Assembly: GCF_009914755.1 (NCBI RefSeq)
Contig: NC_060944.1
Direction: 5' to 3' (one strand)
DNA length: 64,000 nt
From: the human T2T-CHM13v2.0 reference genome, Homo sapiens
A program made the position numbers and the translations under genes. This document shows, piece after piece, positions 18,181-64,000 of this stretch. A model generated the notes under the pieces. It was not told the origin of the DNA and did not search any database. It saw only the letters and a list, made by a program, of their open reading frames with translations. Each line of letters opens with the position of its first letter. Within the stretch, counting starts at the first letter, position 1.

Positions 18181-18189
18181 GAATTGCGA

Positions 18190-18486
18190 CTAGAAATTCG
18201 ATCGATTGCTACGAGGGACCACGTGGCCAGGGGCTGGCCAATGACCAGGCCGCCCAGGATGAGTAATAATGGAAGCAATTTGTAACTTTCAGTAACTCTC
18301 TAGGCCTGGGTACCGGAGGGAGGGAGGCGGGCAAAGGAGGGGAGATGGGCACCCCCAGTCTTTCCATCCTCCTCATTCGTCTAGGTGCACCCGAATCCCC
18401 TATTCCTTATTTCCCGTATCACTCAGGCACTGGCAGCGTCCTTTGCCCACTCCTGTTGGCCGCGGCGGCTCCAAAGCGAGGTAAGC
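18190..18486 (+). promoter_or_regulatory. CpG-rich promoter-like element (E-box + CCAAT) with a candidate non-coding first exon ending at 18480
   Basis: CACGTG 18220-18225, CCAAT 18238-18242, strong donor GAG|GTAAGC at 18480/18481. Confidence 0.55.
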
Positions 18487-20149
18487 TGGTCCTCTACCCC
18501 TCAAACTCTTCACAACCTTCACCCCGTTTACTAGCACCTGCAAACCACAGCCTCCCTTCCTGTCCCATTAGTGAATTTAAATCGGATTTCGTTTTTCCTC
18601 TTAGTTGAAAGAAAAAAATCTTTTTGTATTCTTTTGTGTAACCTATCTCGGATTTGGAGAAAATTTTAATTCAAATTAATACACTTATATTGGGGGGGGT
18701 GAGTGGTACTTTCCTCCTTTTCAATAAATTTCTATACTTGCTACTTTATGGAGAGTTTACTTTTCTTTGGGGATGAGTTACACCTTATGTTTTCACATGT
18801 GTTACTTCTTTAATGATAAGTGCAACTCCTTTCTCCATTCCATCCTCCAATTTTGCTATTTATAAATATCACCTAATGGATTTAGAGTTTATTCATTTTT
18901 CTCCTCCCTCACTAGTTTTTCAGCTGTTACAGAATCACCACAATTTATTTTTCTCTGTATGTGGATGAGGTTTTGTGTTGATTCCTCTTTTTGTTTTGTA
19001 AATGAATTTATTGTTTGGGAAACTCTTGGGGTGGTGTGTGTAAAAAAGGTCTTTTGATTAATTCCAACCTCTCCTCTTCTGAAGAACAATTTGCTTGAAA
19101 TTTTTGTGTATTTTCCTCATTTTTATTATGTTTAAATTTGAGGTATTTTACCTTCTTTAAAACCTGACCTCTTTTTAAAATTTAACCTTTTGCATGTTAA
19201 ACCATTTTTAAGGTTTTTATTTTATAAACTGCAATGGTTAGTAGATTTACTTGTCTTTCCCTGACCTCCTTCACGCTCCTGCCTCCTCCATCTCAAAACT
19301 CCCATCCCCAGCTTCCACAATTCTCAGCTTCCAACGGACTCATCCTCCCCTCTCCTCCCAGCCAAGGAGGGATGCCTGGGAAGTAGACAGTGTCCTTCTT
19401 GGGTCAGAACCTATGCTCTGGTTCTAGTTCAGGACACCTCCAGTCTCACCTCCAAGCTGGCAAAACGAGTGAGAGCAGAATTTCTGTTCAACTTTTTCAT
19501 TTGGGACTAAGTTCTTTCCACTTGGCTGTATTCTGGAGAACTCTGATACATGAAATTGAATTTTAAATTCTCATTTTTTCCTTAAATTCTAAGAAAAGTG
19601 CAGGCAGATTGTTTTTCTTCCTTAAATGTAAGCTGTTAGCTTAGGGGTCAGCCCTTTGGGTCTTTTACCTCCTGGGGGAGACTTCTCAGAGAGACATACA
19701 GTGTTGATTCTTCCTTTTAGTTTTTGTTAAGGTAGAAGGGGCAGGGATTGAGGAAGCCCATATTGATCTCTGGCTCTAGCTCTGAACAAAGAAGGGTAGA
19801 GAGCTGGCCTGGGGACTTGTTCCTTTTGTCAGTAAGGTTTGGCTTAGGAGAGAGTTTGAAGTAAATCCCAGCTCTGAGGAAATTCTTCTTTTTAGCATTA
19901 CTGTGAAAATAAACTCTTAAAATGGTGTGACATGGCTTCAAACTATTCAGATTCCTTGAAGTAACAAAAATAAACTTACAAGAGTAATTTGTGTTTCCCA
20001 GAGATCCGCCTCCAGTGACTCCATTTCTCTCAGGGAAACAGAACCCAACTGGGCAGAAGCAAAACTGCCACCCCTCCGCTTTCAGGTCCCCAGTCACATT
20101 GACATTCTGGGCACATTTGGCCCAGCCCCCGTCCCTGCTTCTCCCAAGT

Positions 20150-20245
20150 ATGAATCTAAGTTACTATTAATAAGGGGCCGCTCCAAGTTAATTGGCATTA
20201 AAAGAATTCATTTCAATTTGTTAATATTAAATGAATGCTCTGCAC
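20150..20245. promoter_or_regulatory. Homeodomain-site-dense AT-rich element (candidate conserved enhancer)
   Basis: TATTAATA, GTTAATTGG (20187-20195), GGCATTAAA and TTAATATTAA (20221-20230) in unique GC-rich context. Confidence 0.45.
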
Positions 20246-20689
20246 TTTAGCTCCCTTCTTCGCCCTGGATTCCCAGATGAGTGATGGGAAGAGGGGGCAG
20301 GGAAGTAGAATGAGGATTTTATTTCTGGCTCTCCAGCTTAGCCACTGTGGTGCCTCCCCTGGGGGTGTGCGATTAGGCACAGTGGGGGACGGCTTGGGGA
20401 AAGTCTGATGGTCTTTTTTGGTGAAATTCATCTGTTTCAGCAGGAGTTGTGGGGGAGGGTTGGGGGGAGCAGAGGGAGAGAGACAGAATGGTTTGGGGGA
20501 CTTTGTGGGGAGCAGAGGGACTAGGGAGAAAGTGGGAAGGGAAAGGGACGGAGGTCAACAGGAGTTTTGGAGAACAAGGGTTGTAGGCTGTGGGGGGTAA
20601 AGCAGATTTGTGAAGAACTGGTGATAGGAACTAAACAACCCACCTAGAAGGGGAGGGGCTTTGAGCAGGGGTGGGGAGGTGGGATTTGA

Positions 20690-21160
20690 GGCAAAACAGC
20701 TAGGAGTTCTGAAACTATTAATATCTAGCTGTGTGACTCAGGGCAAGTTGCTTAACTTTTCTCTCTGCCTTAGTTTCTTGACCTGTAAAACAGGGATACT
20801 AATAATAGAACTTATCTCAGGGGGTTATTTGGAATTAGAAGAAATACATGCCATGTGTTTTCCACAGTGCTTGGCACATAGAAACTGCCAGTAAATGTTA
20901 GCTCTTTTTATGGCAGAGTGGTTAACAGGATGGATTCTGGAGCTAGACGGCCTGGTTTTGAATCTCGGTCATGCCTTATGTGAGTTGTATGACCTAGGCA
21001 AGTTACTTAACCCCTTGTGCTTTAGTTTTCTTGTCTGTAAAACGGGGTTAATAGTACCTAGCTCAAAGGCTGCTGTCAGGATTAAATGAGTTATATGTAC
21101 AAAGAGCCTGGAACAATGTCCATCCCATAGGAAACACTATGTACCCATTAGTTGTCATTG
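20690..21160 (+). mobile_element. Two tandem MIR elements
   Basis: MIR core seen twice (agctgtgtgactcagggcaagttgcttaac; tgacctaggcaagttacttaacc). Confidence 0.85.
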
Positions 21161-22769
21161 ATATTGTTGCTCTTCTGATCTAGGAAGGTTGAAAATAGAG
21201 GCATAGGTGAGCTACTACTTACAGGCTAAGATTGGAATCAGATCAACTCTTTCTCTCTTATCCCTGAAGCTAGTCCTGCAAATGGGGCTGCATATGAGGG
21301 CTTGGGGAGAGAGCCTATAAACCTGGAAGCTGGGATATCCAAGTCTTTCCTCTGCTCTAGCTCTTGGGTTGGTGGTCCCTCCAAGACCCATAGACTCGAA
21401 GTCACTTCTTTTTCCCTGGGCAAGGTTGGGTTGGATCTGGTAATGGGAGAATTACTTTCTTGGTCTAATAACTCCCTTTAGTAGAGAGGTAGTCCTGGGA
21501 GTGTGAGTTGGGGGAGGTTGGGTAGAGCAGAGGAGATTAAATATCCTTTATGTACCAGCCCACACACACTTGACCTCACCAGAGGGTTGGGAAGACAGAG
21601 ATTCAAAGAGAGGAAGTGATCTGACAAAGTTCTAAAGCTAGAACTTGGCAGAGTTGGCATCTGAACTCTGATCTGCTTGATGACAAACTTAAAGCCCTTC
21701 CATTGCTGCATGCTTTTTGAAGGGAGGGATGGGACACGTGTAAACTTGGGCCAGGACCATGGGGTAGATGGAAGATGGGTGAAGATAGAGTATTGGAGTG
21801 GAAAGTGGCCAAGCAGGAATTTTTCAATCATGGAAGATTTCCTGAGAAAAGAGATTCCAGATCAGGGTTCAGATGGTAGGGGAATGAGGATAGGAAATAA
21901 AGAAGAGGGAGGGAGCCATGCATTGACAAGGAAGGAGAAGAAAAAAGAATTTATGCAAAGGCTGGGTCAGAGTAATGGACATGAATTTGATTTGCCTTCC
22001 GTTTGCCTTACCATTTATTGAAGGCATACTATGTACTAGGTACATACATGATCACATTTGATGTTCACAACAGCCCTGACAAGTGGGTTTCTTATCCCTA
22101 TTTCCAAAAGAGTTCATTGAAGTTCTGAGAGCTTAATCCCCGCTTTAGGTTACACAGTAGTAGCTGGATTTCCTGGCATGAGAACCCTCACCTAGGCTGT
22201 CTCTGAGCCTGGCTTCTGTGTCCCAGTCTCAATTTCCATGACTGTTTCAGGTCCTCCTGTTCCCTCATATTTGTAGTCACTCTTGGTGACTGGGAACAAA
22301 GGGCTAGAGCGTGAGCTGAAACTGAGACAGGGAGTGGCAGGCAGGCAGTGGGGACAGAAACTTTTCTCACATCCACCCATGTGAAGAAGATGGACAGAAC
22401 GGTGGTCTTTCTGGATGGAGGCTTCCAAGCCACTTTCCGGAAACAGCTGATCTTGGGATGAATGGCAGGGACCTGATTGGGTAGGGGATGGGTGGTCACA
22501 TTGTTTTCTGGGCTGTAGACTTTATTTCCCTTCCTTTGGGAAGAGAAGAGGAAGAGGACAGCTCAGGTGTGGGTTTGAGCCCTGGATTAAGACTGCCCAT
22601 TGTCCACTAAAATCTCTTCTTTCCTTGCTGCCCGAGGGTGGAGAGACACCCAGCTGGACACTCCATTTCCCAGCTGTCTTGTTGCCAGGTGTAGACACAG
22701 GGAAATGTGAGGCGAGCATGTCCTCAAAGCCTGACGGCATTGGGTAAATTCTCCTTTGTGTTCTCTCTT

Positions 22770-23005
22770 TCATGAGCTGGGCAGATGTGCCTGAGACAGG
22801 TTTGACCAGGCAACTGAAAAGATATCCCTAAGAGAAGACAAAGCAAAGGTATGAAAGGAACACACGTCCCTGACTGACTAGGAGGAACAGAGCTGCCTGC
22901 TGTCTGGAACCGCTTCCTCCCAGACTAAGAGAGAAATAAACTTCTGTTTTCTATATGCTACTGTGTTTTGGGGCCTTTGTGTTATAGCAGTTTTGCTGTC
23001 ATCCT
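22770..23005 (+). mobile_element. MLT1-type LTR 3' fragment
   Basis: gagagaaataaacttctgttt...tactgtgttttggggcctttgtgttatagcag. Confidence 0.6.
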
Positions 23006-23056
23006 TTCTAATTCACCTTCTCACACCAGATATTTCAAATTAAAAAGATTATATCA

Positions 23057-23354
<298 letters not shown>

Positions 23355-23369
23355 TTACATCAGATCACG

Positions 23370-23600
23370 GAATAACTATAATGATATTTATTGGGCCAGA
23401 TAGTATGCGAAGGACTGTATGCACATTATTTAGTGTAATCTATGTGACAATCCTCTGAGATACGTGTTACTATTATTCCAGTTTATACACGAGGAAACAG
23501 GTTCAAGGAAGGTAAGTTATGTGCTGAGGGACACACAGGAGGGGGTGGAGCTGGATTTCAAGCCCACTGGGTGTGCAGAACTGAGCCTCTTCACCATGGG
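23370..23600 (-). mobile_element. MIR
   Basis: gaggaaacaggttcaaggaaggtaagttatgtgc...ggagctggatttcaagccc. Confidence 0.7.
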
Positions 23601-24589
23601 GGCAAATCCCTCCTGAGGACAGGGCTGGAAAAGCCATGGAGATCATCTTGTGCTTGGACAAGCCTCTCGCCAGTCACCACAGGGTCCTGAGACTCCCATT
23701 CCTACCTTCAAGAAGCTCAGCAGGCTACTACTCGTGTTCATGTTGGGTCACTATATATGGTTTTATTTGAAGGAAGGACCCCAGAGTTAAACTCATTTGA
23801 AAACCCCTGATAAATTCAGTCCCCTCCCTCTTTTTACAGGTGAGGCCTGGAGAGAAGATATGACTTGCTTAAGGTCACACACTTAGTTTCTCTGTCAATC
23901 TTTCTAAATCTAGGACGAGTTCTCTTCCCACTGTATCAGGCTGCCTCAACAAATAAGGAAGTACAAAAATAGCCAAATCCAGGAAGGAGGGCAGTGGTCT
24001 GTGTCTCCTCCAATAATTTCATGGGACAGCCAAGCCTATTTCCTTGATTTCCCTTGTGCCCCTCCTGTTGGATATCAGATTTGGGACCCATCTCTTTTGG
24101 GCTTGCAGAGAGAATGGGCTGCACCAGTTCTCTGCCCTCCGCATCACCTAGATGGTCAAACATGCAAAGGGAAAGGAGAGCTGGGGCCAGAGCCAAGGCA
24201 GGCAAAGAGACTCCTCGACACCCTCCAGTCTTTCCACATTTATATTTTTGGAATTTCAGGCTCCCTCCTCCCCCTGGACCTTTCCTAGTAGCCCACCAGG
24301 GAGAAGAAGAGGGAAAACTGCCATAAATTTCTCCTATTTATACAAGATGACAGAGTTTCTTGTGCCAGTAAAAACACAGAAAGGGAGCTGTCAGGGGAGA
24401 AGGGACCCAGCCCTATACCTTCTGGGGTCAATTTATCTTTCCGAATCGTGGCTTGGGGGCTACCCTAACATTGCCTGTATGAAATGCAGGCTTCGACTTG
24501 GGGCAGCCAGGCTAGACAGCCCCTGAGCTTTGTTTCTGATCACAGTTTTCCTGCTTCATCTCAACTTCCCCCTACCCCTTATGCTGTCT

Positions 24590-25060
24590 TTTTAAAAAAC
24601 AACTTTCTTGAGGTATAATTCATGTGTCATACAATTCACCATTTGAAATGTACAATTCAATGATTTTAGTATATTCACAGGTGTGTCAAACCATCATCAT
24701 AGTTAATTTTAGAACATTTTCATCACCTCAAAAAGAAATCTTGTAACCTTTAGCTATCACCTCCCTATCCCCCCATATTCCTTCTTGCCCTTAACAACAC
24801 TAATGTACTTTCAGTCTCTGTAGATTTCCCTATTCTGGACTTTCATATGAATGGCATCATATAATAAGAGACCTACTGTGACTAGCTTCTTTCATTGAGC
24901 ATAGTGTTTTCAAGGTTCATCCATGTTGTAGCATTTATCAGTACTTCATTCCTTTTCAAGGCTGACTAATATTCCATTGTATGGGTATATCACACTTTGT
25001 TTATCCGTTCATCTATTGGTGAACATTTGGGTTGTTTCCACCTTTTGGATATTATTATTC
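24590..25060 (-). mobile_element. L1MB 3' UTR fragment
   Basis: ttgaggtataattcat...tttagtatattcacag...ttttagaacattttcatcacc...tcaaggttcatccatgttgtagcat. Confidence 0.88.
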
Positions 25061-25874
25061 TCTCTTTCTTCTCATTCTCTAGACATCTTGGATAGTATCC
25101 AGTGAGGCCTGTGGGCAAGAATTGGTGTTTCTTATATTTGGGTACACCTAATATCCATGAAAGCAGGGTCTTGGCACATGTCTGCTTTCATATTAAGTAC
25201 ATGTACTAGCTGGAATTTTCCTCCCTCTATTGTTACTGAGGTGGGGCTGCTCCCTCCTTTATCAATTCTCCCTTTTTATCATGATAGCTATGTTGGAAAC
25301 TTGCTGACTCTTCAGACTAGGGGATTCAGATCCTTCTCTTGGGGCTTCAAAGACATGGAGTGGATGAATGAATGTCTTCCCATGAGGGAAGAGTTCCCTG
25401 AGTCTGGTCTCAAGTGATTCTCCAGTGCCTCACAGTGGAAGGAAGGTCTGTGAAGGCTCCAGGTTCTAGGGAAAGTTATGTTCTTGGAGGTATGACTGAG
25501 CCCAGAATCCAGGCCTCCAGTTTCCATCTCCTTGCCTGGACCATTTCAGTCTTCAGACATGCTTTGAGGTCAATCCAGTCACTCACCCAGCAACAGACAC
25601 TGCCTCTGCCCTCATGGACCTTGCAGTTCTAGTGGTGAGAGTAAGATGAATACAAGTGAACAAAATGATGGCAAGTTGTTCAAGCTTGTTCAAACTTCTA
25701 AACACTGTTCAATGAATGAATGAACCAACAAGAACTTACTATGTGCTCTGGAAAGAAAATGTGAAAAAAGTCAGAGTTGTAAATCACTTTCTGCTACCAC
25801 TACCTTTCCTAGTCTGGAAGTCAGCATTACTTCTCCATCCCTTGGAGGAGATAGTGGGCAGATATTACAAAATG

Positions 25875-26070
25875 TTAGCTAATAAGAGCTACCATTTATT
25901 GGACCAGACATACACCAAGGGGTTTCTATAGTTCATTAATTTTCACCCTTTGAATTAGGCATCAATATTTCCATTTTGAAGATGAGAAAAACCAAAACTC
26001 AGGTTAAAGTAGCTATCTGAAATCACACCCATAGCAGCAAGTGGCAGAACATTTGCTCTGGACACTGGGA
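25875..26070 (-). mobile_element. MIR
   Basis: ccattttgaagatgagaaaacc...agcaagtggcagaac. Confidence 0.7.
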
Positions 26071-26073
26071 TAA

Positions 26074-26433
<360 letters not shown>

Positions 26434-27081
26434 ATGTATGTGTTTTTATTCCTAGCACTTCATAACAAATGCCAATATCTCTTCCTGCAGCCTTACCACA
26501 GAGGGAGCTGATCAGTTTCCCCTCCTGCCCAAAGGCAAAGCAGCCACAGTGAAAGTGCCAGAGTACTCCCTCACAGCCTTCTGTCTAGTGGTTATTCCCG
26601 CTTCAAGGCTAAGGAAGGGAAGGACCCGTTTTGCTTTCAAAGGCTTTTTCCTTCCAGCCCTTGCTGTGTGCCCGTTGTGTGTGGGAGGGACCATGAGAAG
26701 CCTGGTTATTGTCAACAAAAGACTTGAACAAGCCAAAGAGCTGATGATGTTGACAAGAAGGGGACCTTAACAAGGCAGATAATCAAAAGTTGATGACTGA
26801 CAGCCCCTTTTGCATCCCTTCACCCTCTACTAAATCAGGTCTCTTACATGATCTTGATGACAAATAATAAAAATTATAAACACATTACAGTTTTCACATG
26901 CATTTGTTCACTTCTCACAGCAAATATGAGAGGTATCTAAGGCTGAGCAGCTTATTACAGAAAAGGTTTATGGGACTAGAACCTTAATTTTATGTAACAA
27001 AATTTATATAGAGCTTACCATGGATCATGTACTCTCCTAAATAGTTCAAAACTTTCATTTTTAGAGAGATGGGTGTCTTGC

Positions 27082-27372
<291 letters not shown>

Positions 27373-27490
27373 GGGGGGAGCGGTCTTGCTATGTTACCCA
27401 GGCTGGTCTTGAACTCCTGGGTTCAAGCAATCTTTCCACCTCAGCCTTCTGAGTAGCTAGGACTATGGGCCCATGTCACCAGGCCTGGCT
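27373..27490 (-). mobile_element. FLAM (remainder of the interrupted monomer; other part at ~27055-27081)
   Basis: gtcttgctatgttacccaggctggtcttgaactcctgggttcaagcaatc. Confidence 0.8.
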
Positions 27491-28704
27491 GTATCTCATA
27501 ACTATTAACTCATCTACTTTTTCACCACCATGTGAAGTAGGCATTACTGTTATTCACATTTTTTAAGATGTGGAAACTGAGGCATGGTAATCAAGTATCT
27601 TGCCCAAGGTTGTACAGCCAGCAGGTGGTAGAACAGGGATCTTGGGCCCAGCCCCAGCATCTGTGTCTAACCACTTCGCCAGGTGGGCTTTGCATGGGGA
27701 CTACACTTGAAACTTTAGTTTGTTAGTCTGGTGCCCCTGCTTCCACCTGCCTCCCTCAGTCTTTATGGCCCATTGGCAAAAGGAAGCCAGAGCTGTGGCT
27801 CCCAGGGTGACGATCCTTCAGCTGCCTCCTTGGCACTGTCATTCCCTCCTCCCATCTCCCGCCAAAGGCTACAGCCGAGAATACCACAGACGGTTTGCCA
27901 TGGATCAAGATTTCTCTCAATAGAGAGCTCACAGAAAGGCTGCTGTGAGAAAGGAAGTCACTTGCTACTCCCCTTATTCCTCCATCAGGAGGAGCCTGAT
28001 GAGGTCACTGCACATTTGAGTGGGTGCTATCAAAGCACAGCCTCTGGCCAGCGTGGAGACAAACATGGGCTGTGTGGCCCATGACTGAGTGGCTGAAAGG
28101 AAACCTGAGGTGGTAAATGATGGAACCGATTGAAATAAAACTACTGTAGGAATGCTGCATGTCATTCATTCAACAGTGCTCCCTGACCAGGGCCCAGGGC
28201 TGTGCATATGAGCTGCAAATGGGTTTGTTCATTCGTTTACATATCTATTTGCTTATTTATTCAATAAATTCTGATTATGCCCCTAAGAGGCACTGTGCTA
28301 GATGTCAAGGGTGAACAAGACAAAATCCCTTCCCCACAGGGGCTCCCGGTCTAGAGAGGGGAGGAGGAAGGAAGATGCACAGTGATTTGTATCATATGCT
28401 GAGGAAAGAGAGTCATTTACTATCGCCGTTTGACATCCTCACCCCCAGTGCGGTCCTTCTCTTTGTCTCTCCATGCTGGGAGTGGGCAGTCCCTGCCCTG
28501 CTGCCCTTCAGACACAGCCCTCTTCCCTCAAGCTGCCCTCTGCCTGGATCCCACCTTCCTTGTGAGCTGGAGTGTTTGCGTTGAAGGAGTCTTGACTCTC
28601 TTTCCCTGTCAGTCACTGTTTGGCTGCAGGCAGTGATAGAGGTGGCAATAAAGCAGCAGAGAGAAGGCTTTGGTATCAGAGCAGGGACTCGCGGGTGGGA
28701 TGGG

Positions 28705-32480: not shown

Positions 32481-33470
<990 letters not shown>

Positions 33471-33619
33471 CAGTCACCTGGGTGTGCACAGCAGCATTTG
33501 GGGGATGGGAGTGGGAGGGGAGCTTTCCCAAACTGCACATTCCTATCTCTTTTACATTTTGAAAGCCCCTACCCTTCCAATGTGGGAGGACCATTGCTTA
33601 AAATCTTTGGAGAAGCAAC

Positions 33620-53850: not shown

Positions 53851-54829
53851 CCTCTGCTCTCTCTCTCCCAAGACACTGGTTTCTGTTTGGGAGCAGATCC
53901 CTTCTTGGATCCACGCTGCTTCTGCGATTCTGAACAAGCCATCAATCTCCTGAGTCTCAGTTCTCCCTTCTGTATAATGGCCTTTAAAGCCTGGTGGAGT
54001 GTTGGGGGCACAGGAGATAATACTGGGGAAAATCACGCTCTCTCTTAAGTAGAAACCGAATTTCACTTTTAGTTTACAATGCTCAGAATAATCTGGGCCA
54101 AATGTGCGAAGCCAAGTAAGAGCTGAGTGGCTACTCACACACAGAATATATGTTTATACACATACACATAATGTTTTTAGCATACCATGACTGCTTAGAC
54201 GTCTTTAAAGAGAACACTAGCCCAGGTCCTTCTCCAGGGAGGCGACTGTCTCCAGCAGGACTTTTTCTCCCCTCTACTGAGGCCACCTACCTGTCTTAAG
54301 CCCCCAGACCCCATCCGTTCTGGGGTTCCCCTGCAATCCAGAGCCAGGCTGAGGTGGTATGCGGGAAGATCTCCCTTTGGAAAATGTTTCTGGATAATTT
54401 CCCAACTCCTTGACCATGTTCTCCCCACCTCACCCACATTCAGATAACACAGGTTCTAAGGCTCCTTCACTCCTCCACCCCCGGGGGGGATACTCCTTGG
54501 GCCTGGCCCTGTGGAGGAGCTGGGAGGTGGGATCCAGAACCAATTGCAATTCTGGACGCACACTCAACCGCCTCCTCACTCCCTTTTAACCTTTCCCTCT
54601 CGTCAGAAGCCAAATTGAGATAGTCTTGAGTTTTGATTTAATTCCCGAAATGGAGTCATAATCTGCTTAGTGTCCTTTTTCCCGAGTCCTAGATACTGAA
54701 GTGTGTGTGTCTGTCAGGGGGAGTTAAAAGAGCAGCTCTGTGACCTTTGGAGGACCCTCACACTCACTCATCTCCCAAACACCACCAAAGAGCAGGAGAC
54801 GCCATGGCCCTGAGTTGCTGGGTAGTATG

Positions 54830-55510
54830 ATGATGGTACTGACAACTCACATTTACTAGGCACTTACCACATGCCAGTACTGAGACAGGCACTATACACG
54901 CATTTCTCACTTAATTCTCACAACTACCTTTCAGGTAGGTACCATTCATATCCCCAATTTACAGATGAAGAAACTGAGGCTTAGCGAGGTTAAGCAGTTT
55001 ATGTTCCATCCTGCAGTGATTACAGACGGTCCTTGACTTATGATGCTTTGACTTACAATTTCTCAGCTTTATGATGATGTGGAAGTGATATGCATTCATT
55101 AGATACTGTACTTCTAATACTCATACAACCACTCTGTTTTTCACTTTCAGTACAGTATATTATAACATGTTGAATCTCATGTTGAATACATGAGATGAAT
55201 AAATATCTCATGTTGAATACATGAGATATTCAACACTTTATTATAAAATAGGCTTTGTGCTAGATGATCTTGCCCAACTGTAGGCTGATGAAAGTGTCCT
55301 GAGCACTTTAAGGTAAGCGAGGCTGAACTATGATGTTTGGTGGGTTAGGTGTATGAAATGCATATCCACCTTACAATATTTTCAACTTACTACAGCTTTA
55401 TCGGGACACAGCCTCATCGTAAGTCAAGGAGAGTCTATTATTAAGTGGCAGAGCCCAAATTTGAAACTACACAGTCAGACTGCAGAGCCTGTGCTCTTAA
55501 CCACTTAGTT
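54830..55510 (-). mobile_element. MIR split by MER47A
   Basis: acagatgaagaaactgaggcttagcgaggttaagca before and aagtggcagagccc...gtgctcttaaccact after the insertion. Confidence 0.8.
55023..55436 (-). mobile_element. MER47A (TcMar-Tigger MITE)
   Basis: TIRs cagacggtccttgacttatgatg / catcgtaagtcaaggagagtct; internal tttattataaaataggctttgtg...tgcccaactgtaggct. Confidence 0.88.
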
Positions 55511-56189
55511 GTGTGACACCTGGCAGGGTATTTAACTTCTACATGCCCTGTTCCCTCATTTGCAAAACACAGATAAGTAGGGATGATAAGATATTCCCTT
55601 CAAAGAATTATGTTGTGTAATTGAGCTAAGGCATTCACCATACTCGCAGTAAGCATTCAGTAGTTTAGGTGCCCTACACACTGGAGCAAGGTTGAGGAAG
55701 GGAAAGGGTACAATCCAATGGGCTATTAATTATTCATTGTTACTGTTGATAATAATAGTTATCATGCATTGAGATCCAACTGAGCATAGGCCACCCTACA
55801 AGGTAAAAATTATGTCTGTTTTACAGATGAAGAAACTGAGTTTCACATAAATTAGGTAAATTACCTAAAGCCATCCAGTTAATAAGTGACAGAACAGAGC
55901 TCTTGTTCAAACACTGGGCCCTTGACTCCAAAGCCTGCAGTTCCCAGCACCCCCAGGGTCACCAAAACCTGGCCTCTCCTGGGGGAGGTCAGGGCTGAGG
56001 CCAACAAGCCCAAGTCACACCCTTTACCACCTGGGACATGATTTTCTCCAGGTGAGCAATGTTTTCTTAAAAGAACAGGAGGACAGTAAATAATTAACTA
56101 AGACAGTTTCTCCCTCCCTGAAGCCAAGGTAGAACCTCCCCCCTACAGCCAACCCCCACTCTCCTCACTCCTGTTTCCTCTGGGCTCAA

Positions 56190-56400
56190 GTTTGTGGCCA
56201 TTAAATAGAAGAGGAGAAAGTTTGAACCAGGCATGAAATATTTATCAGGTAATTACAATATGCAGATTCTGTTCCTAGGGGTGATTTATCTTTTTGGAAA
56301 TATAGGAAAAGGTCCTGGAAACTTGTATCCTAATTGCTTGGCCTATTATTGTAGCAACCAGGTAGAAACTCCATTTACTATGTAATTACAAATTTTCCCA
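56190..56400. promoter_or_regulatory. Homeodomain motif cluster (candidate enhancer)
   Basis: GGCCATTAAA 56196, GTAATTAC 56249, TGATTTAT 56282, TGTAATTACA 56381. Confidence 0.45.
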
Positions 56401-56744
56401 CTACTGGAGGTATCTGCCTCTGCTTCTATCACTGGTGGTCTGGGGACCATATGCTTTTCTGATAAGAGATGAGCCTCTTAGAGGTCAATTTGTCAATTCC
56501 TCTGTCTCCTCTTTGGGTGGCCCCTTTGTAAATTCTAATAGCTATAGGAAATGAAAAAGGTGAGAGTCTCTGAAATTCTGGGATCTCAAGAGAAGCTAAT
56601 TCTAAGTGAAAACCTCCCCGACTGAAGCAGTGCCACTGGTGAGGGGATGTCCAAGGTTGAGAAGCAGCTCTCAGCTGAGTATCCCTCCCCTCCCTTGCTC
56701 TGGCAGAAGTGTCAGCCCTCCCCTTATCTCTTGTATCATTTCCT

Positions 56745-57240
56745 AGGGCCTGCAACTCAACCTCTGGCTACACATTATCAACCTGGGGAGTTTTAAAAAT
56801 CCAGATGCCCAGGCCCTACTACAGGCCAACCAAATTGGAATCTCTGGAGGTGGGACCCAGGCATCAGTATTTTAAAAAACTTGTGGCCGGGCATGGTGGC
56901 TCACACCTGTAATCCCAGCACGTTGGGAGGCCAAGGTGGGCAGATTACCTGAGGTGAGGAGTTCGAGACCAGCCTGGCAAACATGGTGAAACCCCGTCTC
57001 TATTAAAAATACAAAAATTAGCTGGGCATGGTGGCAAGCACCTGTAATCCCAGCTACTCGGGAGGCTGAGGCAGGGATAATTGCTTGAACCCAGGAGGCA
57101 GAGGTTGTAGTGAGCCGAGATGTGCCACCGCACTCTAGCCTGGGCGACAAGAGCAAGACACCATCTCAAAAACAAAAATGAACAAACAAAAAAACTCGCT
57201 GGGGGTTCCAATGTGCAGCGAAAGTTGAGACCCTCTAGAG
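56745..57240. mobile_element. MER5-family element interrupted by Alu
   Basis: ctcaacctctggctacacatta...tggaatctctggaggtgggacccaggcatcagtatttt / ttccaatgtgcagcgaaagttgagacc. Confidence 0.8.
56885..57194 (+). mobile_element. AluS
   Basis: Full dimer; TSD-like aaaaaact. Confidence 0.93.
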
Positions 57241-57394
57241 CTAATAGAAGAGTATCACTGCCTGGTAAATGGGCCCTGCTTATCTGCAAGACTGTGTAAT
57301 TTTTATCCCTCCCTCTCTGGTGCTGGATGAGGCAATTCCTTCACTTTTTAGAACCTGAAGAACATCTCTCTTTCTTCACAAGAAGCTTGTAACA

Positions 57395-57610
57395 CAATAA
57401 CTACCACTTATCGAGCCCCTGCTGAATGCTTGGATCTATGCAAATAAAATTTAATCTGATCTACAGAACAACTCTATAAGGTCAGTGGGTATGTCTATTT
57501 TATGGATGGCTCAGAGAGGTTAAGTAATTTGCCCAAGTTTGTACAACTAGCAAGTGTCAGATCAGGGACTTGAATCACAAACCCATGCTTTTAACCCCTG
57601 TGGTACACTG
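57395..57610 (-). mobile_element. MIR
   Basis: ggctcagagaggttaagtaatttgcccaag. Confidence 0.8.
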
Positions 57611-60326
57611 CCTCTCACTTTCTCAAGGTCAGAAGGGAAGGGCTTCAGGTCCACCATATGAAGTGCCTACGGAATGTCTTGGGGAAGGAAAGACGAGAGA
57701 AGCAAGGAGAAGTATAGAGAAGCAGACAAGGGCTACACATGCATAGGGCATGGAGGGCAGAATGGTGGCTGGGAAAGACTGAAGAGGGTTTGTGGGGTTA
57801 AGAGGAGTTACCTGAAGGAGGGTGTGGTAAGCCAACAAGTGCATGGGAAGGGGGCAGTCGCTATGGAGATAGCTGGGGAGTGGGGGAACGGGGTCCAGGA
57901 GTGGGCGCCGGCAGTTGGAACATCCAGAACAGTGAGCAGTGCCCATCGTGGACTGGGTGGTTGGGGAGTGGGAGGGACCTCGTGTCAGAGGAGGGGTCTT
58001 TGTGAGCGTGCAGCAGTGAGGAATGCTCCGCCATGAATACTAAGGGCAAGAAGAGAAAGAGCCAGAGGGGGCTGGGTGATGTTTAGCTGCTGGGGTGATT
58101 AATGGGGGTGAACGGAGGGTGAAACTCAAGCCCTTCCAACGAAGATGGTGGGGAATGGTTGTCCAAGAACAACAGTGCACTGTTTCATGGAGAAAGCCAA
58201 TGTCCAGGGGAGGGGTGGCTGAGAAAGATGCTAGGCACAGTTGCTCCTTCCCTTTTTTCCCAAGTTCTCTTGATTTACCACCAAACAGTAAATTAAACTA
58301 TATTAGCCAGTTCCAGGGGACCCTCTGGATGGGCTTCCTACCTGCCTCCTGGCTTTGGAGAGACCAAGGAATGTTGGCATGGCTTGGAGAAAGAGTGAGT
58401 GAGGTCTGGGCTGAAAGCTGAGATGACTCCATGGACCACCCCCATCGTGGGGCACAAAATGGTAATGTGTTGGCAAGAGCCACTGGCTCCCTCTGGACCA
58501 GACAGGCACTGAGAGATACATGGGGGTTGGGACTTCAGGTGTCCTGTAGAAAGTGGTAGTGTTCTTAGAGCAGTTTTTAGAGAAGCCCCTTGGCCTCAGG
58601 GAGGGACACAGGGCTCCTTTTCTGTGAGAGAGAGAGAGTTGGGGGAACAAGGAGAGAGGGCTTCCCATGGCTCTGGTTTTAGGGTGTTGACCTGGGTTTG
58701 AAGAATGGAGATAAACCTTGTGGGAAATAACAGGTTTAAGCCACTCTCCCCTCATTTCCTACTGCTGTCTCTTCCTCTAGGTACAGCTGTTGGGAGCTGC
58801 ATCTCCTACCCTCAGTCTCCCTGTCTGTGGTTCCAGAGGGAAGAAGAGGGGAAAAAAAGGATGAAGAGAATTGTTTCAGTGCTGGGGGAGGTGAGCTTAC
58901 AGCAGGGATTTAGATGGGCATTACCTCATGGGATAGGAGCAATTTTCTCCCTCTCCAGGCCTCTCACAGATGTGAAACAACCGGCAGATCTGACTTTCCC
59001 ACCCCTAACCATCAGAGGGGATGATATGACTTGAAACCTGTGCTTCTCGATTGAGAGGCTGGTGGGGGAAAGAGAGGTCAGGAAAAGGGTCCAGATGTGT
59101 GTTCAGGGGTCCCCAGAGAGTTGAGGGAAACTAGCATCTCCTTAGGGTAAGGAAGACAAAATGACCATTCCTGATCCCAGATTGCTTAGATACTGTGCCT
59201 GGGAGTCCTCCCACCTCACCTTAATTCCTGTCTCCACACACAGCTTGGCCAAGTTTCTTCCCCTGTTGGAGTCTCACTCCCAATCCGCTACTCTATCTCT
59301 CCAGGAGCCTACAAAGCACTTTGAAATCCGAAGTTTGTGGGAAGTGGCTGTATTGCACAAATACTCTGAGGTGCAACATTACTTGACTGGTAATGAGGCA
59401 ACCATCCCACCTAGGGCAGAGTTCAAGGACTGCCTTCAAGAGGGGCTGGCCTCAGTTTGCCTGTTACAGAAGCCAAGGGCTAACAGAGGCTCCCCTCTGC
59501 CTCACAAAGAAGGAGATAAATGGGTCCACTGGAGAGCAACGGTCACAATCAAGTCTTAATGATGAATTAATAATTCATAATTACCCCAGACTTGCAGATA
59601 AGCACAAGCCTACTGGAATTATTTCCCAGGGAGGAACACAGTCAGAAAGGGTGAGAAGGGGACTTCAGTACAGACATTACTTCCAGAGGCCGTTAAGTTC
59701 ATTCCTCTGCTTCCCAACCAGAACCCGGAAGAGATTCATTAGCTTCCTTGGCTGATTCCTCCTAACAGCTACCACCCCCTGAGCTTCTAAACAGTGCCAT
59801 ATTGCCCCTCTGTTCTTCATAAGGCCAGAGGACCATTCCTACCAAAGTGACCTCAGAGCCTGGACTCTGGATTTCTGGCGTCTCTCTGTTCTCTGCTCCC
59901 CATTCTGCTATTTACATACGAGGTCCCCTGTAGGAGGGCCTGGTGCTAGGTGTCCCGGCGAGATGTGGACATCTTTCTGGCTCTTCTCCTTCTCTTATCT
60001 AAGTCCTCACATGGTGGGAAAATACCTCTCTAACGCTATGTAGAAAGAGAAGCAGGGAGTGCCCCTTCTAGCGTGGATGCCTTTGGTTCCCAGATCTGGA
60101 TTTGAGGGGCTGGCTCTATCTCTTAAGACATTTACCTAGTATTGATAATGGAGATGGGGCCTAAATAGGGCTAGGGAGGCACACCCAACTCCCGACCCAG
60201 CTCTCTGCTGTTCCCCTTCCCAGTGCACACAATCCCAATTCCCACTCCAGAAATTTTTTTAAAAACATATCTTAAAAGAAACCTCGAAGAGCCAAGCAGA
60301 CCCTCAGCTTCAAGGTATCTCCTCAT

Positions 60327-60376
60327 TCTCTCTCTCTCTCGTTTGCTCTCTCTCTCTCTCTCTCTCTGTCTCTCTG
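60327..60376. repeat. Interrupted (CT)n microsatellite
   Basis: Directly visible. Confidence 0.9.
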
Positions 60377-60727
60377 AATCTACAAAGAAGGAGTGAGTTT
60401 TGTCTCTCCAAGTACTCAGAGCCTTAGATCACAAAGGGGCCTTAGATCCTGGTCTTTAGGAGATCTTTGACCACCACCTCTGCTGTGGCACGACCTTTGT
60501 CAAAATGCTAGAAAGAAGAGAGACTGGCTCTTAGACCAAGGGAATTTGGGATTTGAAAGGTCTTCCAATTACAATTCTATAGATTTCCTTCCCATTAGCC
60601 TTTTCATGTGCATCAAATGTAAATGGCAGGCTAAACCTACAGGATGAAGAGAGTTGAAAGACTGCTGTCTAAAAATGCCCTTTTCCAAATCTGTGGGTGC
60701 AGAAGCATATTGAAAAGCAGCTACCCA

Positions 60728-60898
60728 GCCTGGCGGTGTGGCACATGCCTGCAGTCTCACATACTTAAGAGGCTAAGGTGGGAGGACTACTTGAGCCCAG
60801 GAGTTTGAGGCTTCAGTAAACTATGATGGTGCCACAACAGTCCAGCCTGGGAAACAGAGCTGGACCCCATTTCCAAAAAAAAAAAAAAAAAAAAAAAA
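60728..60898 (+). mobile_element. FRAM / free right Alu monomer
   Basis: Single right arm with A tail; TSD aaaag(c/t)ag(c/t)taccca. Confidence 0.85.
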
Positions 60899-61316
60899 GT
60901 AGTTACCCAGGTAAGGTGGATGATCAAGTACACCCAGTGAGAAGCACACAAACCTTACCCTTTGCCCAACTCTGCCCCTTACCTGGCCCATTTCTGGTCT
61001 CTAGAGGAGGATCAGTTAGGGGGTGTGACCCAAGTTACCCAGATAATTAACTGTGGAAGCACGATTTTTTTTTCACTCCTTTGGCCTCTAAATATGAGAG
61101 ATCTTTACATCTCTTGCCTATCTCCCTCTTATTCTCTAACCTCTCTCCAACATGCACGCAAATCCTAGCAACAAAAAATCCTAAATATAGGAAGACAAAC
61201 CTTCCTGACCTACCATTTTGGCCCACCTGCAACCCCTGTCCCCCGCACACCCACCCCCCAATTTTTTCCTCACCTGAGCCTCTGCTCTTCGCTTCTAAAA
61301 TAAAAAAAAAAGAAGG

Positions 61317-63146
61317 CTCCCTCTCCCTCTCCCCCTCCCCCTCCCTCTCCCCCTCCCTCTCCCCCTCCCCCTCCCTCTCCCTCTCCCCACGGTCTCCCTC
61401 TCCCTCTCTTTCCACAGTCTCCCTCTGATGCCGAGCCGAAGCTGGACTATACTGCTGCCATCTCGGCTCACTGCAACCTCCCTGCCTGATTCTCCTGCCT
61501 CAGCCTGCCGAGTGCCTGCGATTGCAGGCGAGCGCTGCCATGCCTGACTGGTTTTCGTATTTTTTTGGTGGAGACGGTGTTTCGCTGTGTTGGCCAGGCT
61601 GGTCTCCAGCTCCTAACCGCGAGTGATCCGCCAGCCTCGGCCTCCCGAGGTGCCGGGATTGCAGACGGAGTCTGGTTCACTCAGTGCTCAATGGTGCCCA
61701 GGCTGGAGTGCAGTGGCGTGATCTCGGCTCGCTACAACCTCCACCTCCCAGCCGCCTGCCTTGGCCTCCCAAAGTGCCAAGATTGCAGCCTCTGCCTGGC
61801 CGCCACCCCGTCTGGGAAGTGAGGAGTCCCTCTGCCTGGCTGCCCAGTCTGGAAAGTGAGGAGCATCTCTGCTCGGCCGTCATCCCATCTAGGAAGTGAG
61901 GAGCGCCTCTTCCCGGCCACCATCCCATCTAGGAAGTGAGGAGTGTCTCTGCCCGGCCGCCCATCGTCTGAGATATGGGGAGCGCCTCTGCCCCGCCGCC
62001 CCGTCTGGGATGTGAGGAGCGCCTCTGCCCGGCCGCGACCCCATCTGGGAGGTGAGGAGCATCTCTGCCTGGCCGCCCTGTCTGAGAAGTGAGGAGACCC
62101 TCCGCCCGGCAGCTGCCCCATCTGAGAAGTGAGGAGCCCCTCCGCCCGGCAGCCGCCCTGTCTGGGACGTGAGGAGCGTCTCCGCCCGGCACCCCGTCCG
62201 GGAGGGAGGTGGGGGTCAGCCCCCGCCAGGCCAGCCACCCCATCCGGGAGGGAGGTGGGGGTCGGCCACCGCCCGGCCAGCCGCCCGGTCCGGGAGGGAG
62301 GTGGGGGGTCAGCCCCCGCCCGGCCAGCCGCCCCATCCGGGAGGGAGGTGGGGGTCGGCCACCGCCCGGCCAGCCTGGTCCGGGAGGGAGGTGGGGGGGT
62401 CAGCCCCCGCCCGGCCAGCCGCCCCATCTGGGAGGTGAGGGGCGCCTCTGCCCGGCCGCCCCTACTGGGAAGTGAGGAGCCCCTCTGCCCGGCCACCACC
62501 CCGTCTGGGAAGTGTACCCAGAAGCTCATTGAGAACGGGCCATGATGACAATGGCAGTTTTGTGGAATAGAAAAGGGGGAAAGCTGGGGAAAAGATTGAG
62601 AAATCGGATGGTTGCTGTGTCTGTGTAGAAAGAAGTAGACATGGGAAACTTTTCATTTTGTTCTGTACTAAGAAAAGTTCTTCTGCCTTGGGATCCTGTT
62701 GATCTATGACCTTACCCCCAACCTTGTGCTCTCTGAAACATGTGCTGTGTCCACTCAGGGTTAAATGGATTAAGGGTGGTGCAAGATGTGCTTTGTTAAA
62801 CGGATGCTTGAAGGCAACATGCTCGTTAAGAGTCATCACCACTCCTTAATCTCAAGTACCCAGGGACACAAACACTGCGGAAGGCCGCAGGGTCCTCTGC
62901 CTAGGAAAACCAGAGACCTTTGTTCACTTGTTTATCTGCTGACCTTCCCTCCACTATTGTCCTATGACCCTGCCAAATCCCCCTCTGCGAGAAACACCCA
63001 AGAATGATCAATAAAACAAACAAACAAAAAACAAAAACAAACAAACAAACAAAAAGAGTAGAGTTGTCAGGTCAAACATAGGACCCTCAGTCAAATGTGA
63101 ATTTCAGATAAACAGTGAATAATTTTTTTGGCAAAAAAAAAAAAAA
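61317..63146 (+). mobile_element. Full-length SVA retrotransposon (SVA_D-like) with 3' transduction
   Basis: (CCCTCT)n ~61317-61388, Alu-like domain, GC-rich VNTR ~61790-62515, SINE-R, AATAAA 63010-63015, (AAAC)n tail to 63055, extra segment and second A tail to 63146; TSD ending aagaagg at 61316 and 63157. Confidence 0.96.
63059..63130. mobile_element. Half MER53 (hAT MITE) within the SVA 3'-transduced segment
   Basis: tagagttgtcag...cagtcaaatgtgaatttcagataaacagtgaataatttttt resembles the recalled MER53 arm tagggttgccag...ttgaatttcagataaacaacgaataattttt. Confidence 0.72.
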
Positions 63147-63204
63147 GAAGAAGAAGGAATTTTCAATAGTCCCACTTGTCAAGGGAAGACCATCTTTTAA
63201 CCTT

Positions 63205-63560
63205 CAACAGCAGCGAAAGCCGTGTGAACTCTTGGTGAACCAAGATTGAAGTCATAAATCACGCATACAAAGGCGGCTGAGGAGGCTGGCGCGGGCTGCT
63301 GCACCTTTAACGCTTTCTGGGGCTGACAGGCGGCGGCCCAGCTAAAGTTCATAGCGCCCGGGGAGAGTCGCCTCCGCCTCCCCTCCCGCCCCCGCCTCCC
63401 CTCCCCCAGGCCGGCCCCGCCCCCGGCCCCGGACCAGTCCGCCGCAAGGCCGCCTGAGCTGCGAGCTGAGGAGGCCCCTTGGCTGTTCCTGCAAAGGGCC
63501 AGGGGGCGCATTTTCTCTCCTGCCAGCCAGCTCCAGCCTGGTCGTTTATTCCTGGACTTC
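63205..63560. promoter_or_regulatory. CpG island with RARE, PBX-HOX, MEIS and GC-box motifs
   Basis: TCATAAATCA 63252-63261 (rc TGATTTATGA), TGACAG 63324-63329, C-rich GC boxes 63370-63430. Confidence 0.72.
63225..63241 (-). promoter_or_regulatory. DR5 retinoic acid response element GGTTCA-ccaag-AGTTCA
   Basis: + strand TGAACT cttgg TGAACC; both half-sites match RGKTCA perfectly with a 5-nt spacer. Confidence 0.8.
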
Positions 63561-64000
63561 CCTCATCCCCCACCCCCACAGCCTGCTGTATGTAAATAGG
63601 GAAATAGATCTACACGGACACAATAATTTAGCTTGTTTGGTCTTTGGCATTTTCTACAAGACCCCAAGAGATGGACTTTCCTCTCCCCTTCCTCCTTTTA
63701 GAAATGGCATCCTTCATCACTGTCTATGCATGCCCAATTATCCAGATCCCCGGGGCTCCAATAGGGTCTGAGTCATTGGAACCAGGAACACCTGGCTGAA
63801 ACATGCCACATAATTAGATTTTCTTTTTCTTTACCTTTTCTTTCTTATTTTTATAAGAGGGCCGGAATTAGTCTCTTCGACTGGGGCGGAGTAGCTGGGA
63901 TGTGGGAAAGGAACATCTTCATACAACTTCCAGCTTTCAGCCCCTTGGAGAGATCTCCAAGTTCCCCCGAGCCGCCAGGACTTCCTTTCCTCGATCTCTC

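What the first reader, a model, noticed from the sequence alone, without database searches (positions are those of the whole stretch)
18181..64000. A Hox-type enhancer landscape apparently duplicated without any Hox gene
Seen: ~46 kb with four CpG-rich elements, many HOX/TALE motif clusters and a RARE but no homeobox ORF, abutting an SST1 satellite typical of pericentromeric duplications. Recalled: FAM242C lies 3' of HOXC4 and has paralogs in the chr9 and chr20 pericentromeric regions. Inference: this is a hominid duplicate of the HOXC 3' regulatory desert. It could impose RA/HOX-responsive or Polycomb control on new neighbours, and it would confound short-read mapping of HOXC enhancer data.
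Basis: inference. Interest (0 to 1): 0.75.

Follow-up and report, generated by a model that had tools for sequence, protein, structure and literature searches.

The report
HOXC-flank DNA copied beside centromeres
This stretch of chromosome 20 is a gene-less, roughly 48-kb copy of the DNA that lies just downstream of the HOXC4 gene on chromosome 12, dropped into a satellite repeat near the centromere and then re-copied to chromosome 9; it is an ordinary kind of duplication, and there is no sign yet that it still acts as a Hox control region.

Summary
Window 18129-61315 and 63133-64000 (running on to 67632 outside the window) align collinearly, inverted, at 94-96.5% identity with chr12:54043920-54091673. 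That interval lies 23-71 kb 3' of the last homeobox of the chr12 Hox cluster (HOXC4 by position). The segment interrupts an SST1 macrosatellite unit. Five other pericentromeric copies (four on chr9, one on chr20) share the same SST1 junction, so it was seeded once and then re-duplicated. A copy-specific SVA fills 61316-63132.

There are three real CpG islands plus one weak one, and a fifth CpG-rich block is the SVA. No homeobox is present. One DR5 retinoic-acid-type site sits 12 bp from a PBX/HOX site and is kept in all seven copies. However, HOX/TALE motifs are not more frequent or more clustered than in shuffled sequence.

The window copy has lost about twice as many CpGs as chr12 (182 v 89). 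This fits a methylated, drifting duplicate rather than a protected regulatory domain.

Verdict: a typical pericentromeric duplicative transposition of unusual origin. Regulatory activity is untested. Interest is modest.

The parts
1..7940 (.). Context: duplicon shared with chr13/14/15/21/22 short arms and chr9 pericentromere (95-97%). It carries FAM242A exon 3550-3688.
8240..16223 (+). Context: duplicon collinear with chr20:26051099-26058797 (93-95%), the flank of an SST1 array on the p side. The chr9 copies are collinear from window 7938.
16224..18130 (+). SST1 macrosatellite unit, first part (acceptor site, left half).
   Evidence: 92% to chr20:26058798-26060906, followed there by tandem copies; 88% to about 25 tandem units on chr17 with a period of ~2353 bp. 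Family and chromosomes as described in PMC12657243 (passages read).
18129..61315 (-). chr12-derived duplicon, part 1. It equals chr12:54091673-54048442 and is inverted relative to the HOXC transcription direction.
   Evidence: 96.5% over 37195 columns and 96.1% over 6167 columns.
18327..18623 (.). Weak CpG-rich element (297 bp, 12 CpG, o/e 0.65).
29210..30725 (+). The two 3' exons of lncRNA FAM242A (29210-29509 and 30090-30725). Their AG acceptors and GT donor are also present on chr12:54079072-54080587.
   Evidence: hub annotation
36790..37942 (.). CpG island 1 (1153 bp, GC 0.62, 74 CpG). The chr12 copy has 88 CpG. This copy lost 10 of 81 inferred ancestral CpGs by transition, against 1 on chr12.
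44920..45031 (+). Y RNA-like element, probably a retro-pseudogene.
   Evidence: RF00019, 47.4 bits, gathering score 38.
53421..53933 (.). CpG island 2 (513 bp, 36 CpG). It is well kept in this copy (1 transition loss of 35) and more eroded in the chr9 copies (4-5).
61316..63132 (+). SVA retrotransposon found only in this copy: (CTCCCT)n, VNTR, poly-A. The empty site is present on chr12 and chr9, with an A-rich target duplication.
63133..64000 (-). chr12-derived duplicon, part 2. It continues outside the window to 67632 and equals chr12:54048461-54043920. There it meets the second part of the SST1 unit.
63140..63554 (.). CpG island 3 (415 bp, 25 CpG). It overlaps the RefSeq 'silencer' 63180-63380.
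   Evidence: hub annotation
63225..63261 (-). Composite site. A DR5 (GGTTCA-ccaag-AGTTCA when read on the minus strand) lies 12 bp from a PBX/HOX-type site (TGATTTAT). It is present in all 7 copies that hold this part. chr12 has CG where the six duplicates have TG in the spacer.

Best explanation
Window 18129-64000 is one copy of a pericentromeric segmental duplication. Its source is a 47.75-kb piece of the gene-poor interval 3' of HOXC4 on chromosome 12 (chr12:54043920-54091673 in T2T-CHM13).

History:
1. The piece was copied, without any Hox gene, into a unit of the SST1 macrosatellite.
2. The composite (SST1 flank plus chr12 piece plus neighbouring duplicons) was then re-duplicated among the chr9 and chr20 pericentromeres. 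This gave five near full-length and two partial copies.
3. The timing is about that of the great-ape ancestor, inferred from 2.4-3.1% divergence.

Since then this copy has drifted:
- Divergence is even along its length.
- CpG loss is twice that of chr12.
- An SVA inserted.
- Its sequence has been taken up into new non-coding transcript models. FAM242A is spliced across duplicon borders. LOC105372586 uses splice sites and an SVA exon that only this copy has.

It most likely works as passive, methylated duplicated DNA that supplies exons and promoters to lncRNAs, not as a working Hox enhancer domain. The origin, the junctions and the CpG asymmetry are shown. The methylated state and the lack of enhancer function are inferred.
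For: Origin:
- Collinear alignment to chr12 at 96.5, 96.1 and 94.2%.
- Eight Pfam homeodomain ORFs lie on the chr12 + strand between 53921736 and 54020767. The duplicon therefore starts 23.2 kb and ends 70.9 kb beyond the last one.

Single seeding:
- A probe across the junction (17600-18700) matches end to end at 96-97% in 5 other places: chr9:41.59, 43.25, 48.30 and 79.45 Mb, and chr20:31.18 Mb.
- chr12 matches only bases 530-1101 of the probe, and SST1 repeats only bases 1-531.

Direction:
- The flank beyond the distal border (67632) is SST1 again.
- At 5 SST1 sites the two flanks lie ~320-340 bp apart in the same orientation.
- The segment therefore sits inside an SST1 unit.

Age and order:
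- 3.10% substitutions over 47550 aligned bases, 2.37% outside CpG.
- In 5 kb of all 7 copies, the chr20 pair, the chr9 clade and chr12 split almost as a star. Three chr9 copies differ by only 0.3-0.5%.

Drift:
- Per-kb divergence is 2.1-4.8% with no conserved block.
- Sites with CG on chr12 and TG/CA in the window number 182, against 89 the other way (p=1.7e-8). The split is 163 v 85 outside islands and 12 v 2 in island 1.
- Polarised with 7 copies, island 1 lost 10 of 81 CpGs by transition here against 1 on chr12.

Literature: SST1 is non-randomly associated with segmental duplications (PMC12657243, passages read).
Against: - Island 2 is almost intact in this copy (1 transition loss of 35).
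- The DR5 + PBX/HOX composite keeps both half-sites in all 7 copies. At 3% divergence, though, this is expected without selection.
- RefSeq marks two 'silencer' elements in this copy (hub annotation), one over the DR5. Some fragment activity has therefore been reported.
- The CpG asymmetry also holds outside islands. It could reflect unusually low methylation or mutation on chr12 rather than anything about this copy.
- No methylation, chromatin or expression data could be consulted.
- The age rests on a recalled clock, not on ape genomes.
Confidence: 0.85

Rival explanations
1. The duplicate keeps regulatory activity. Its CpG islands and the DR5 + PBX/HOX module would still recruit RAR/RXR, HOX-PBX or Polycomb, and so give retinoic-acid- or HOX-dependent control (activation, or repression when unliganded) to pericentromeric lncRNAs on chr20 and chr9.
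For: - The DR5 with classical half-sites lies 12 bp from TGATTTAT, inside a CpG island. Only 3 of 300 shuffles place a DR5 within 50 bp of a PBX-HOX site.
- The module is kept in 7 of 7 copies.
- It lies in a RefSeq 'silencer' and ~0.5-0.8 kb upstream of lncRNA LOC107985433 (hub annotation).
- Island 2 is well kept here.
- In mouse ES cells the Hoxc4-Smug1 interval gives late RA-induced transcripts (PMC4510006, passage read).
Against: - The composite was picked out after looking.
- HOX/TALE motifs overall are at chance level.
- Retention at 97% identity needs no selection.
- Island 1 and island 3 are losing CpGs in this copy (12 v 2 and 5 v 0).
- The same mouse study reports very little RAR occupancy at HoxC (PMC4510006).
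- No binding, methylation or expression evidence for this copy was available.
Confidence: 0.12
2. The direction is the reverse. The segment arose in pericentromeric DNA and was later copied into chr12 next to HOXC4.
For: A pairwise alignment alone has no direction. In the unrooted tree chr12 joins at the same node as the chr9 and chr20 lineages.
Against: - The segment splits an SST1 unit whose two parts flank it. chr12 shows no SST1 or Alu at either border.
- All six pericentromeric copies share a derived-looking TG where chr12 has CG in the DR5 spacer.
Confidence: 0.02
3. The similarity is an assembly or collapse artefact rather than true paralogy.
For: Pericentromeric regions were historically misassembled.
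Against: - The copies differ by 0.3-3.4% with copy-specific indels.
- Only one copy carries the SVA, and two copies have different truncation points.
- The assembly is a gapless one, per the hub annotation.
Confidence: 0.01

Closest known systems
Pericentromeric duplicative transposition (mosaic segmental duplications of human 9p11/9q12-21, 20q11 and the acrocentric short arms)
   Same: - A euchromatic segment of tens of kb copied to a pericentromere, then spread by secondary duplication of larger blocks.
- Mosaic of duplicons of different origin: acrocentric-type, chr20p-type, SST1 and chr12.
- 94-97% identity.
- Chimeric transcripts across duplicon borders.
   Different: The source is the flank of a Hox cluster and carries no gene. 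The acceptor site is resolved to the inside of one SST1 unit.
SST1 macrosatellite (MER22 / NBL2 / TTY2 subfamilies) as a site of interchromosomal exchange (PMC12657243)
   Same: Both flanks belong to the family. It forms arrays on chr17 and chr13/14/21, where that paper places SST1 arrays, and searches matched both sets of arrays. That paper reports a non-random association of SST1 with duplications of 10 kb or more.
   Different: Here a single interrupted unit at an array edge acted as acceptor. No array-array crossover is seen.
DR5 retinoic acid response elements 3' of Hox genes (for example the Hoxa1 3' RARE and the RARB promoter element; sequences recalled, not from a call)
   Same: Direct repeat GGTTCA N5 AGTTCA, next to a PBX/HOX bipartite site, 27.6 kb 3' of the 3'-most gene of a Hox cluster on chr12.
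   Different: No binding, reporter or cross-species conservation evidence. A single site, statistically weak on its own.
SVA retrotransposon insertion
   Same: CT-rich hexamer run, GC-rich VNTR, poly-A, an A-rich target duplication and 85-92% matches genome-wide.
   Different: Nothing unusual.

Membership tests
Segmental duplication (pericentromeric duplicative transposition) | Non-allelic copies of at least 1 kb at 90% identity or more | tested here: met
   47.9 kb aligned to chr12 at 94-96.5%. A 2-kb probe has 6 other places at 95-96%.
Segmental duplication (pericentromeric duplicative transposition) | Mosaic of duplicons with different sources, with sharp borders | tested here: met
   Borders lie at about 7940, 18129/18130 and 67632, with different sets of paralogues on either side.
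Segmental duplication (pericentromeric duplicative transposition) | Shared junction among derived copies, showing one seeding event followed by secondary duplication | tested here: met
   The junction probe is full length in 5 of 5 other pericentromeric copies that reach it. chr12 and SST1 each match one half only.
Segmental duplication (pericentromeric duplicative transposition) | Source locus present, and derived copies absent, in outgroup species | not testable with these tools
   No ape or other vertebrate genome is held. Age is inferred from 2.4-3.1% divergence.
SST1 macrosatellite | Belongs to a family that forms tandem arrays of kb-size units on chr17 and on chr13/14/21 | tested here: met
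   - Left flank: 88% to about 25 units on chr17:23.04-23.09 Mb spaced ~2353 bp apart.
- Right flank: 88-90% to units spaced ~1.4 kb apart on chr14 and to an array on chr21.
- Chromosome list as in PMC12657243.
- No SST1 reference sequence was available for direct comparison.
Hox gene cluster | A homeobox | tested here: not met
   No tblastn hit better than E=0.004 with 8 HOXC homeodomain ORFs as queries. As a positive control, all 8 were recovered on chr12. 0 of the 12 long ORFs sent (of 97 listed) hit Pfam.
Hox-type enhancer landscape | HOX/PBX/MEIS sites more frequent or more clustered than background | tested here: not met
   z from -1.9 to +1.7 for 8 patterns against 200 shuffles. 0 bins with 3 or more sites against 1.05 expected.
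Hox-type enhancer landscape | Deep cross-species conservation, or enhancer chromatin or reporter activity | not testable with these tools
   No vertebrate genomes or epigenomic data are held. Only the RefSeq 'silencer' labels from the hub annotation are available.
Retinoic acid response element | Direct repeat of RGKTCA with a 5-bp spacer | tested here: met
   One site at 63225-63241, kept in 7 of 7 copies. Chance expectation is 0.2 per region.
Retinoic acid response element | RAR/RXR binding and RA-dependent activity | not testable with these tools
   None available.
CpG island | At least 200 bp, GC at least 0.5, observed/expected CpG at least 0.6 | tested here: met
   Met by 36790-37942, 53421-53933, 63140-63554 and, weakly, 18327-18623. 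Unmethylated state was not tested.
SVA retrotransposon | Hexamer run, VNTR, poly-A tail, target-site duplication and an empty site in paralogues | tested here: met
   The element is absent from chr12 and from chr9:48.157 Mb. The Alu-like and SINE-R parts were not examined separately.

The most novel reading that the evidence does not exclude
A relic 3' control module of the HOXC cluster lies 27.6 kb beyond HOXC4: a CpG island with a DR5 RARE 12 bp from a PBX/HOX site. It was carried into six pericentromeric sites on chr9 and chr20. There it may still bind RAR/RXR and HOX-PBX. That would make nearby hominid-specific lncRNAs (LOC107985433, LINC01597 and the FAM242 family) retinoic-acid- or HOX-responsive, or, when unliganded, a corepressor-recruiting silencer next to satellite DNA.
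Probability: 0.1. Interest if true: 0.55.

Novelty: new member of a known kind. Interest (0 to 1): 0.33.

Why it matters
It shows that a blind reading of raw sequence correctly traced a pericentromeric block to the flank of a Hox cluster.

Practical points:
- Data for the HOXC4-SMUG1 interval from very short reads are partly ambiguous. 31% of its 36-mers recur exactly in this copy alone, and six more copies exist.
- Signals assigned to FAM242A and its relatives may in part come from chr12, and the reverse.

Biological points:
- The locus gives a cleanly resolved acceptor site inside an SST1 unit. This fits the reported link between SST1 and segmental duplication.
- It also offers a natural experiment. 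The same three CpG islands sit in one Hox-adjacent and six pericentromeric settings, and they already show copy-specific CpG erosion.

The duplication itself is of a well-known kind. It is very probably listed in duplication catalogues, although four literature searches found no paper that describes it.

Tried and rejected
- 16-kb queries against the genome (and in part 6) were swamped by Alu and SVA candidates and missed the paralogues. Short repeat-free probes worked instead.
Multi-copy analyses are therefore limited to 5 kb around island 1 (7 copies) and 4.5 kb around island 2 (6 copies). Island 3 could be compared with chr12 only (one search gave no loci).
- Alu-mediated origin: no Alu-like sequence lies within 1 kb of either chr12 border.
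- Rfam found nothing in the window but a Y RNA-like element.
- Literature:
  - The FAM242 names occur only in expression lists (passages of PMC10238222; no occurrence in the held part of PMC12519442).
  - No paper links HOXC with chr9/chr20 pericentromeric duplication.
  - The DR5 string is in no searched paper.
  - Searches for a Hoxc4 3' RARE gave nothing specific (listings only apart from PMC4510006).
  - PMC6425012 and PMC10299083 (one passage each) only name genes of the interval.
- Supplements were not opened.


Full report
**What is there**

The window is T2T-CHM13 chr20:30442001-30506000. A 2-kb probe from the strongest CpG island (36500-38500) has six other places in the genome at 95-96% identity: four on chr9, one 0.7 Mb away on chr20, and chr12:54071283-54073308 on the opposite strand.

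I fetched 200 kb of chr12 and aligned it to the window. This gave three collinear blocks:
- 18129-55227 at 96.5%;
- 55174-61315 at 96.1%;
- 63133-64000 at 92.5%.

With 20 kb beyond the window, the last block runs on to 67632. The duplicated chr12 interval is 54043920-54091673, 47.75 kb.

The gap at 61316-63132 is an SVA retrotransposon present only in this copy. It has a CTCCCT hexamer run, a GC-rich VNTR, a poly-A tail and an A-rich target duplication. The empty site is present on chr12 and on chr9.

**Where the source lies**

Six-frame translation of chr12:53.92-54.12 Mb finds eight ORFs with the homeodomain helix-3 motif. All are on the + strand, between 53921736 and 54020767. All eight are Pfam Homeodomain, with E-values from 5e-17 to 8e-24.

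That this is the HOXC cluster, with HOXC4 as its 3'-most gene, follows from established knowledge of 12q13.13. No tool named the genes. The duplicon therefore begins 23.2 kb and ends 70.9 kb downstream of the last homeobox, in the HOXC4-SMUG1 interval.

The window itself holds no homeobox:
- tblastn with the eight ORFs gave nothing better than E=0.004 over 29 residues, while all eight chr12 sites were recovered as a control.
- None of the 12 long ORFs I sent to Pfam hit any family. These were 12 of the 97 ORFs of 90 aa or more.

**How it got there**

A probe across the left border (17600-18700) matches end to end at 96-97% in five other places:
- chr9:41593562
- chr9:43248958
- chr9:48304683
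- chr9:79452090
- chr20:31178787

chr12 matches only from base 530 of the probe. A large repeat family matches only bases 1-531. That family includes about 25 tandem units on chr17:23.04-23.09 Mb spaced ~2353 bp apart, plus sites on chr20p, chr7 and chr12 near their centromeres.

Across the right border (67632), chr12 and five chr9 places match the first 533 bases. The remainder matches the same repeat family, including units spaced ~1.4 kb apart on chr14 and an array on chr21.

These are the chromosomes on which a recent study places SST1 subfamilies: sf2 on chr4, 17 and 19, and sf1 on the acrocentrics, with a central gap. That study also reports that SST1 is non-randomly associated with segmental duplications (PMC12657243, passages read).

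At five SST1 sites the sequences matching my two flanks lie 320-340 bp apart in the same orientation. The chr12 segment therefore sits inside one SST1 unit, with about 330 bp of the unit missing. This gives the direction of transfer (chr12 is the donor) and shows a single seeding event.

To the left, the window is a mosaic of other duplicons:
- 1-7940 is shared with chr13/14/15/21/22 short arms and chr9.
- 8240-18130 is collinear with the edge of an SST1 array at chr20:26.05 Mb.

No Alu lies at either chr12 border.

**Copies and age**

The inventory:
- the chr12 source;
- this copy;
- four near full-length chr9 copies (41.59-41.64, 43.20-43.25, 48.31-48.35 and 79.45-79.50 Mb);
- a chr20 copy at 31.18-31.21 Mb that stops at window position 52672;
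- a chr9 fragment at 48.152-48.159 Mb covering 59071-67632.

Over 47,880 aligned columns the window and chr12 differ by 3.10% substitutions, or 2.37% outside CpG.

In the 5 kb available for all seven copies, pairwise divergence is:
- 2.5-3.4% between chr12, the two chr20 copies and the chr9 group;
- 1.3-1.4% to chr9:48.32;
- 0.3-0.5% among three chr9 copies.

The tree joins the two chr20 copies (support 98/97) and the four chr9 copies (100/100). chr12 attaches at the same node. The spread to chr9 and chr20 therefore followed the seeding quickly, and later duplications occurred within chr9.

Against recalled human-orangutan (~3%) and human-macaque (~6%) divergences, this points to the great-ape ancestor. 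That is an inference, because no ape genome was available.

**Is it a Hox-type enhancer landscape?**

Motif counts say no.
- Eight HOX, PBX-HOX and MEIS patterns are within -1.9 to +1.7 SD of 200 dinucleotide shuffles. Six of the eight are no denser than in the unrelated left part of the window.
- No 300-bp bin holds three or more PBX-HOX/MEIS sites, whereas shuffles give about one such bin.
- Divergence per kb is even, 2.1-4.8%, with no protected block.

One feature stands out. At 63225-63261, inside CpG island 3 and inside a RefSeq 'silencer', a DR5 with half-sites GGTTCA and AGTTCA lies 12 bp from TGATTTAT.
- A DR5 alone is unremarkable: 37 of 200 shuffles hold at least one.
- A DR5 within 50 bp of a PBX-HOX site occurs in only 3 of 300 shuffles. 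This is a post-hoc test.
- The 37-base composite is present in all seven copies that cover it. All six duplicates share TG where chr12 has CG in the spacer.
- On chr12 it lies 27.6 kb beyond HOXC4.

Whether it is an old HOXC element could not be tested. A mouse study notes late RA-induced transcripts between Hoxc4 and Smug1 but very little RAR occupancy at HoxC (PMC4510006, passages read).

**State of the copy**

CpG loss is asymmetric.
- 182 sites are CG on chr12 and TG/CA here, against 89 the other way (p=1.7e-8).
- The split is 163 v 85 outside islands, 12 v 2 in island 1, 5 v 0 in island 3 and 2 v 1 in island 2.
- Polarised with seven copies, island 1 lost 10 of 81 ancestral CpGs by transition here, 9 in the other chr20 copy, 2-5 in the chr9 copies and 1 on chr12.
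- In island 2 the pattern reverses between duplicates: 1 of 35 here against 4-5 in the chr9 copies and 0 on chr12.

This fits germ-line methylation of different islands in different copies, with chr12 protected. It argues against this copy having kept the full unmethylated state of its source.

**Transcripts**

- The FAM242A exons at 29210-29509 and 30090-30725 lie in the chr12-derived part, and their splice sites are also intact on chr12. Its upstream exon at 3550-3688 lies in a different duplicon, so the transcript is chimeric.
- LOC105372586 uses a donor (GT, against TT on chr12), an acceptor (AG, against GG on chr12) and an SVA-borne last exon that only this copy has.
Papers mention the name only in expression lists.

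**Mapping**

The share of chr12 k-mers that recur exactly in this copy is 31% at k=36, 19.5% at k=50, 3.9% at k=100 and 0.6% at k=150. The longest identical run is 218 bases. The other six copies would add to this and were not measured.

**Verdict**

The thing is a typical pericentromeric duplicative transposition with a well-resolved SST1 acceptor site. It is of a known kind, and four searches found no paper describing it. The 'enhancer landscape' label and the proposed control of new neighbours are not supported by anything measurable here, apart from one suggestive composite site.

Noticed in passing
window 44920-45031 (+): Rfam Y_RNA match (47.4 bits, gathering 38) inside the chr12-derived segment. 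Probably one of the many Y RNA retro-pseudogenes. Its presence on chr12 was not checked separately.
   Followed up: no
window 56163-61742: The predicted lncRNA LOC105372586 depends on copy-specific features. The exon 1 donor is GT here but TT on chr12. The exon 2 acceptor is AG here but GG on chr12. The last exon lies inside the SVA that only this copy carries.
   Followed up: partly
window 3550-3688 with 29210-30725: FAM242A splices an exon of the acrocentric/chr9-type duplicon to exons of the chr12-derived duplicon. The transcript is chimeric and created by the juxtaposition of duplicons.
   Followed up: partly
window 18129-67632 v chr12: CpG loss is about 2:1 (this copy v chr12) outside CpG islands as well (163 v 85). 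The whole HOXC flank on chr12, not only its islands, therefore seems to lose CpGs slowly, or the pericentromeric copy loses them fast.
   Followed up: partly
L028 3632-4200 (window 67632-68200) and chr9:79498515-79500931: Beyond the distal border, the chr9 copies have ~2.4 kb more before the best SST1 match (83%) than this copy does. This suggests gain or loss of one SST1 unit after the duplication.
   Followed up: no
chr20:31155112-31213894 (outside the window): The second chr20 copy shares window 1-3064 (97%) and the SST1 junction. It is ~6 kb longer between them and stops at window position 52672, so it lacks islands 2 and 3 and the DR5.
   Followed up: partly
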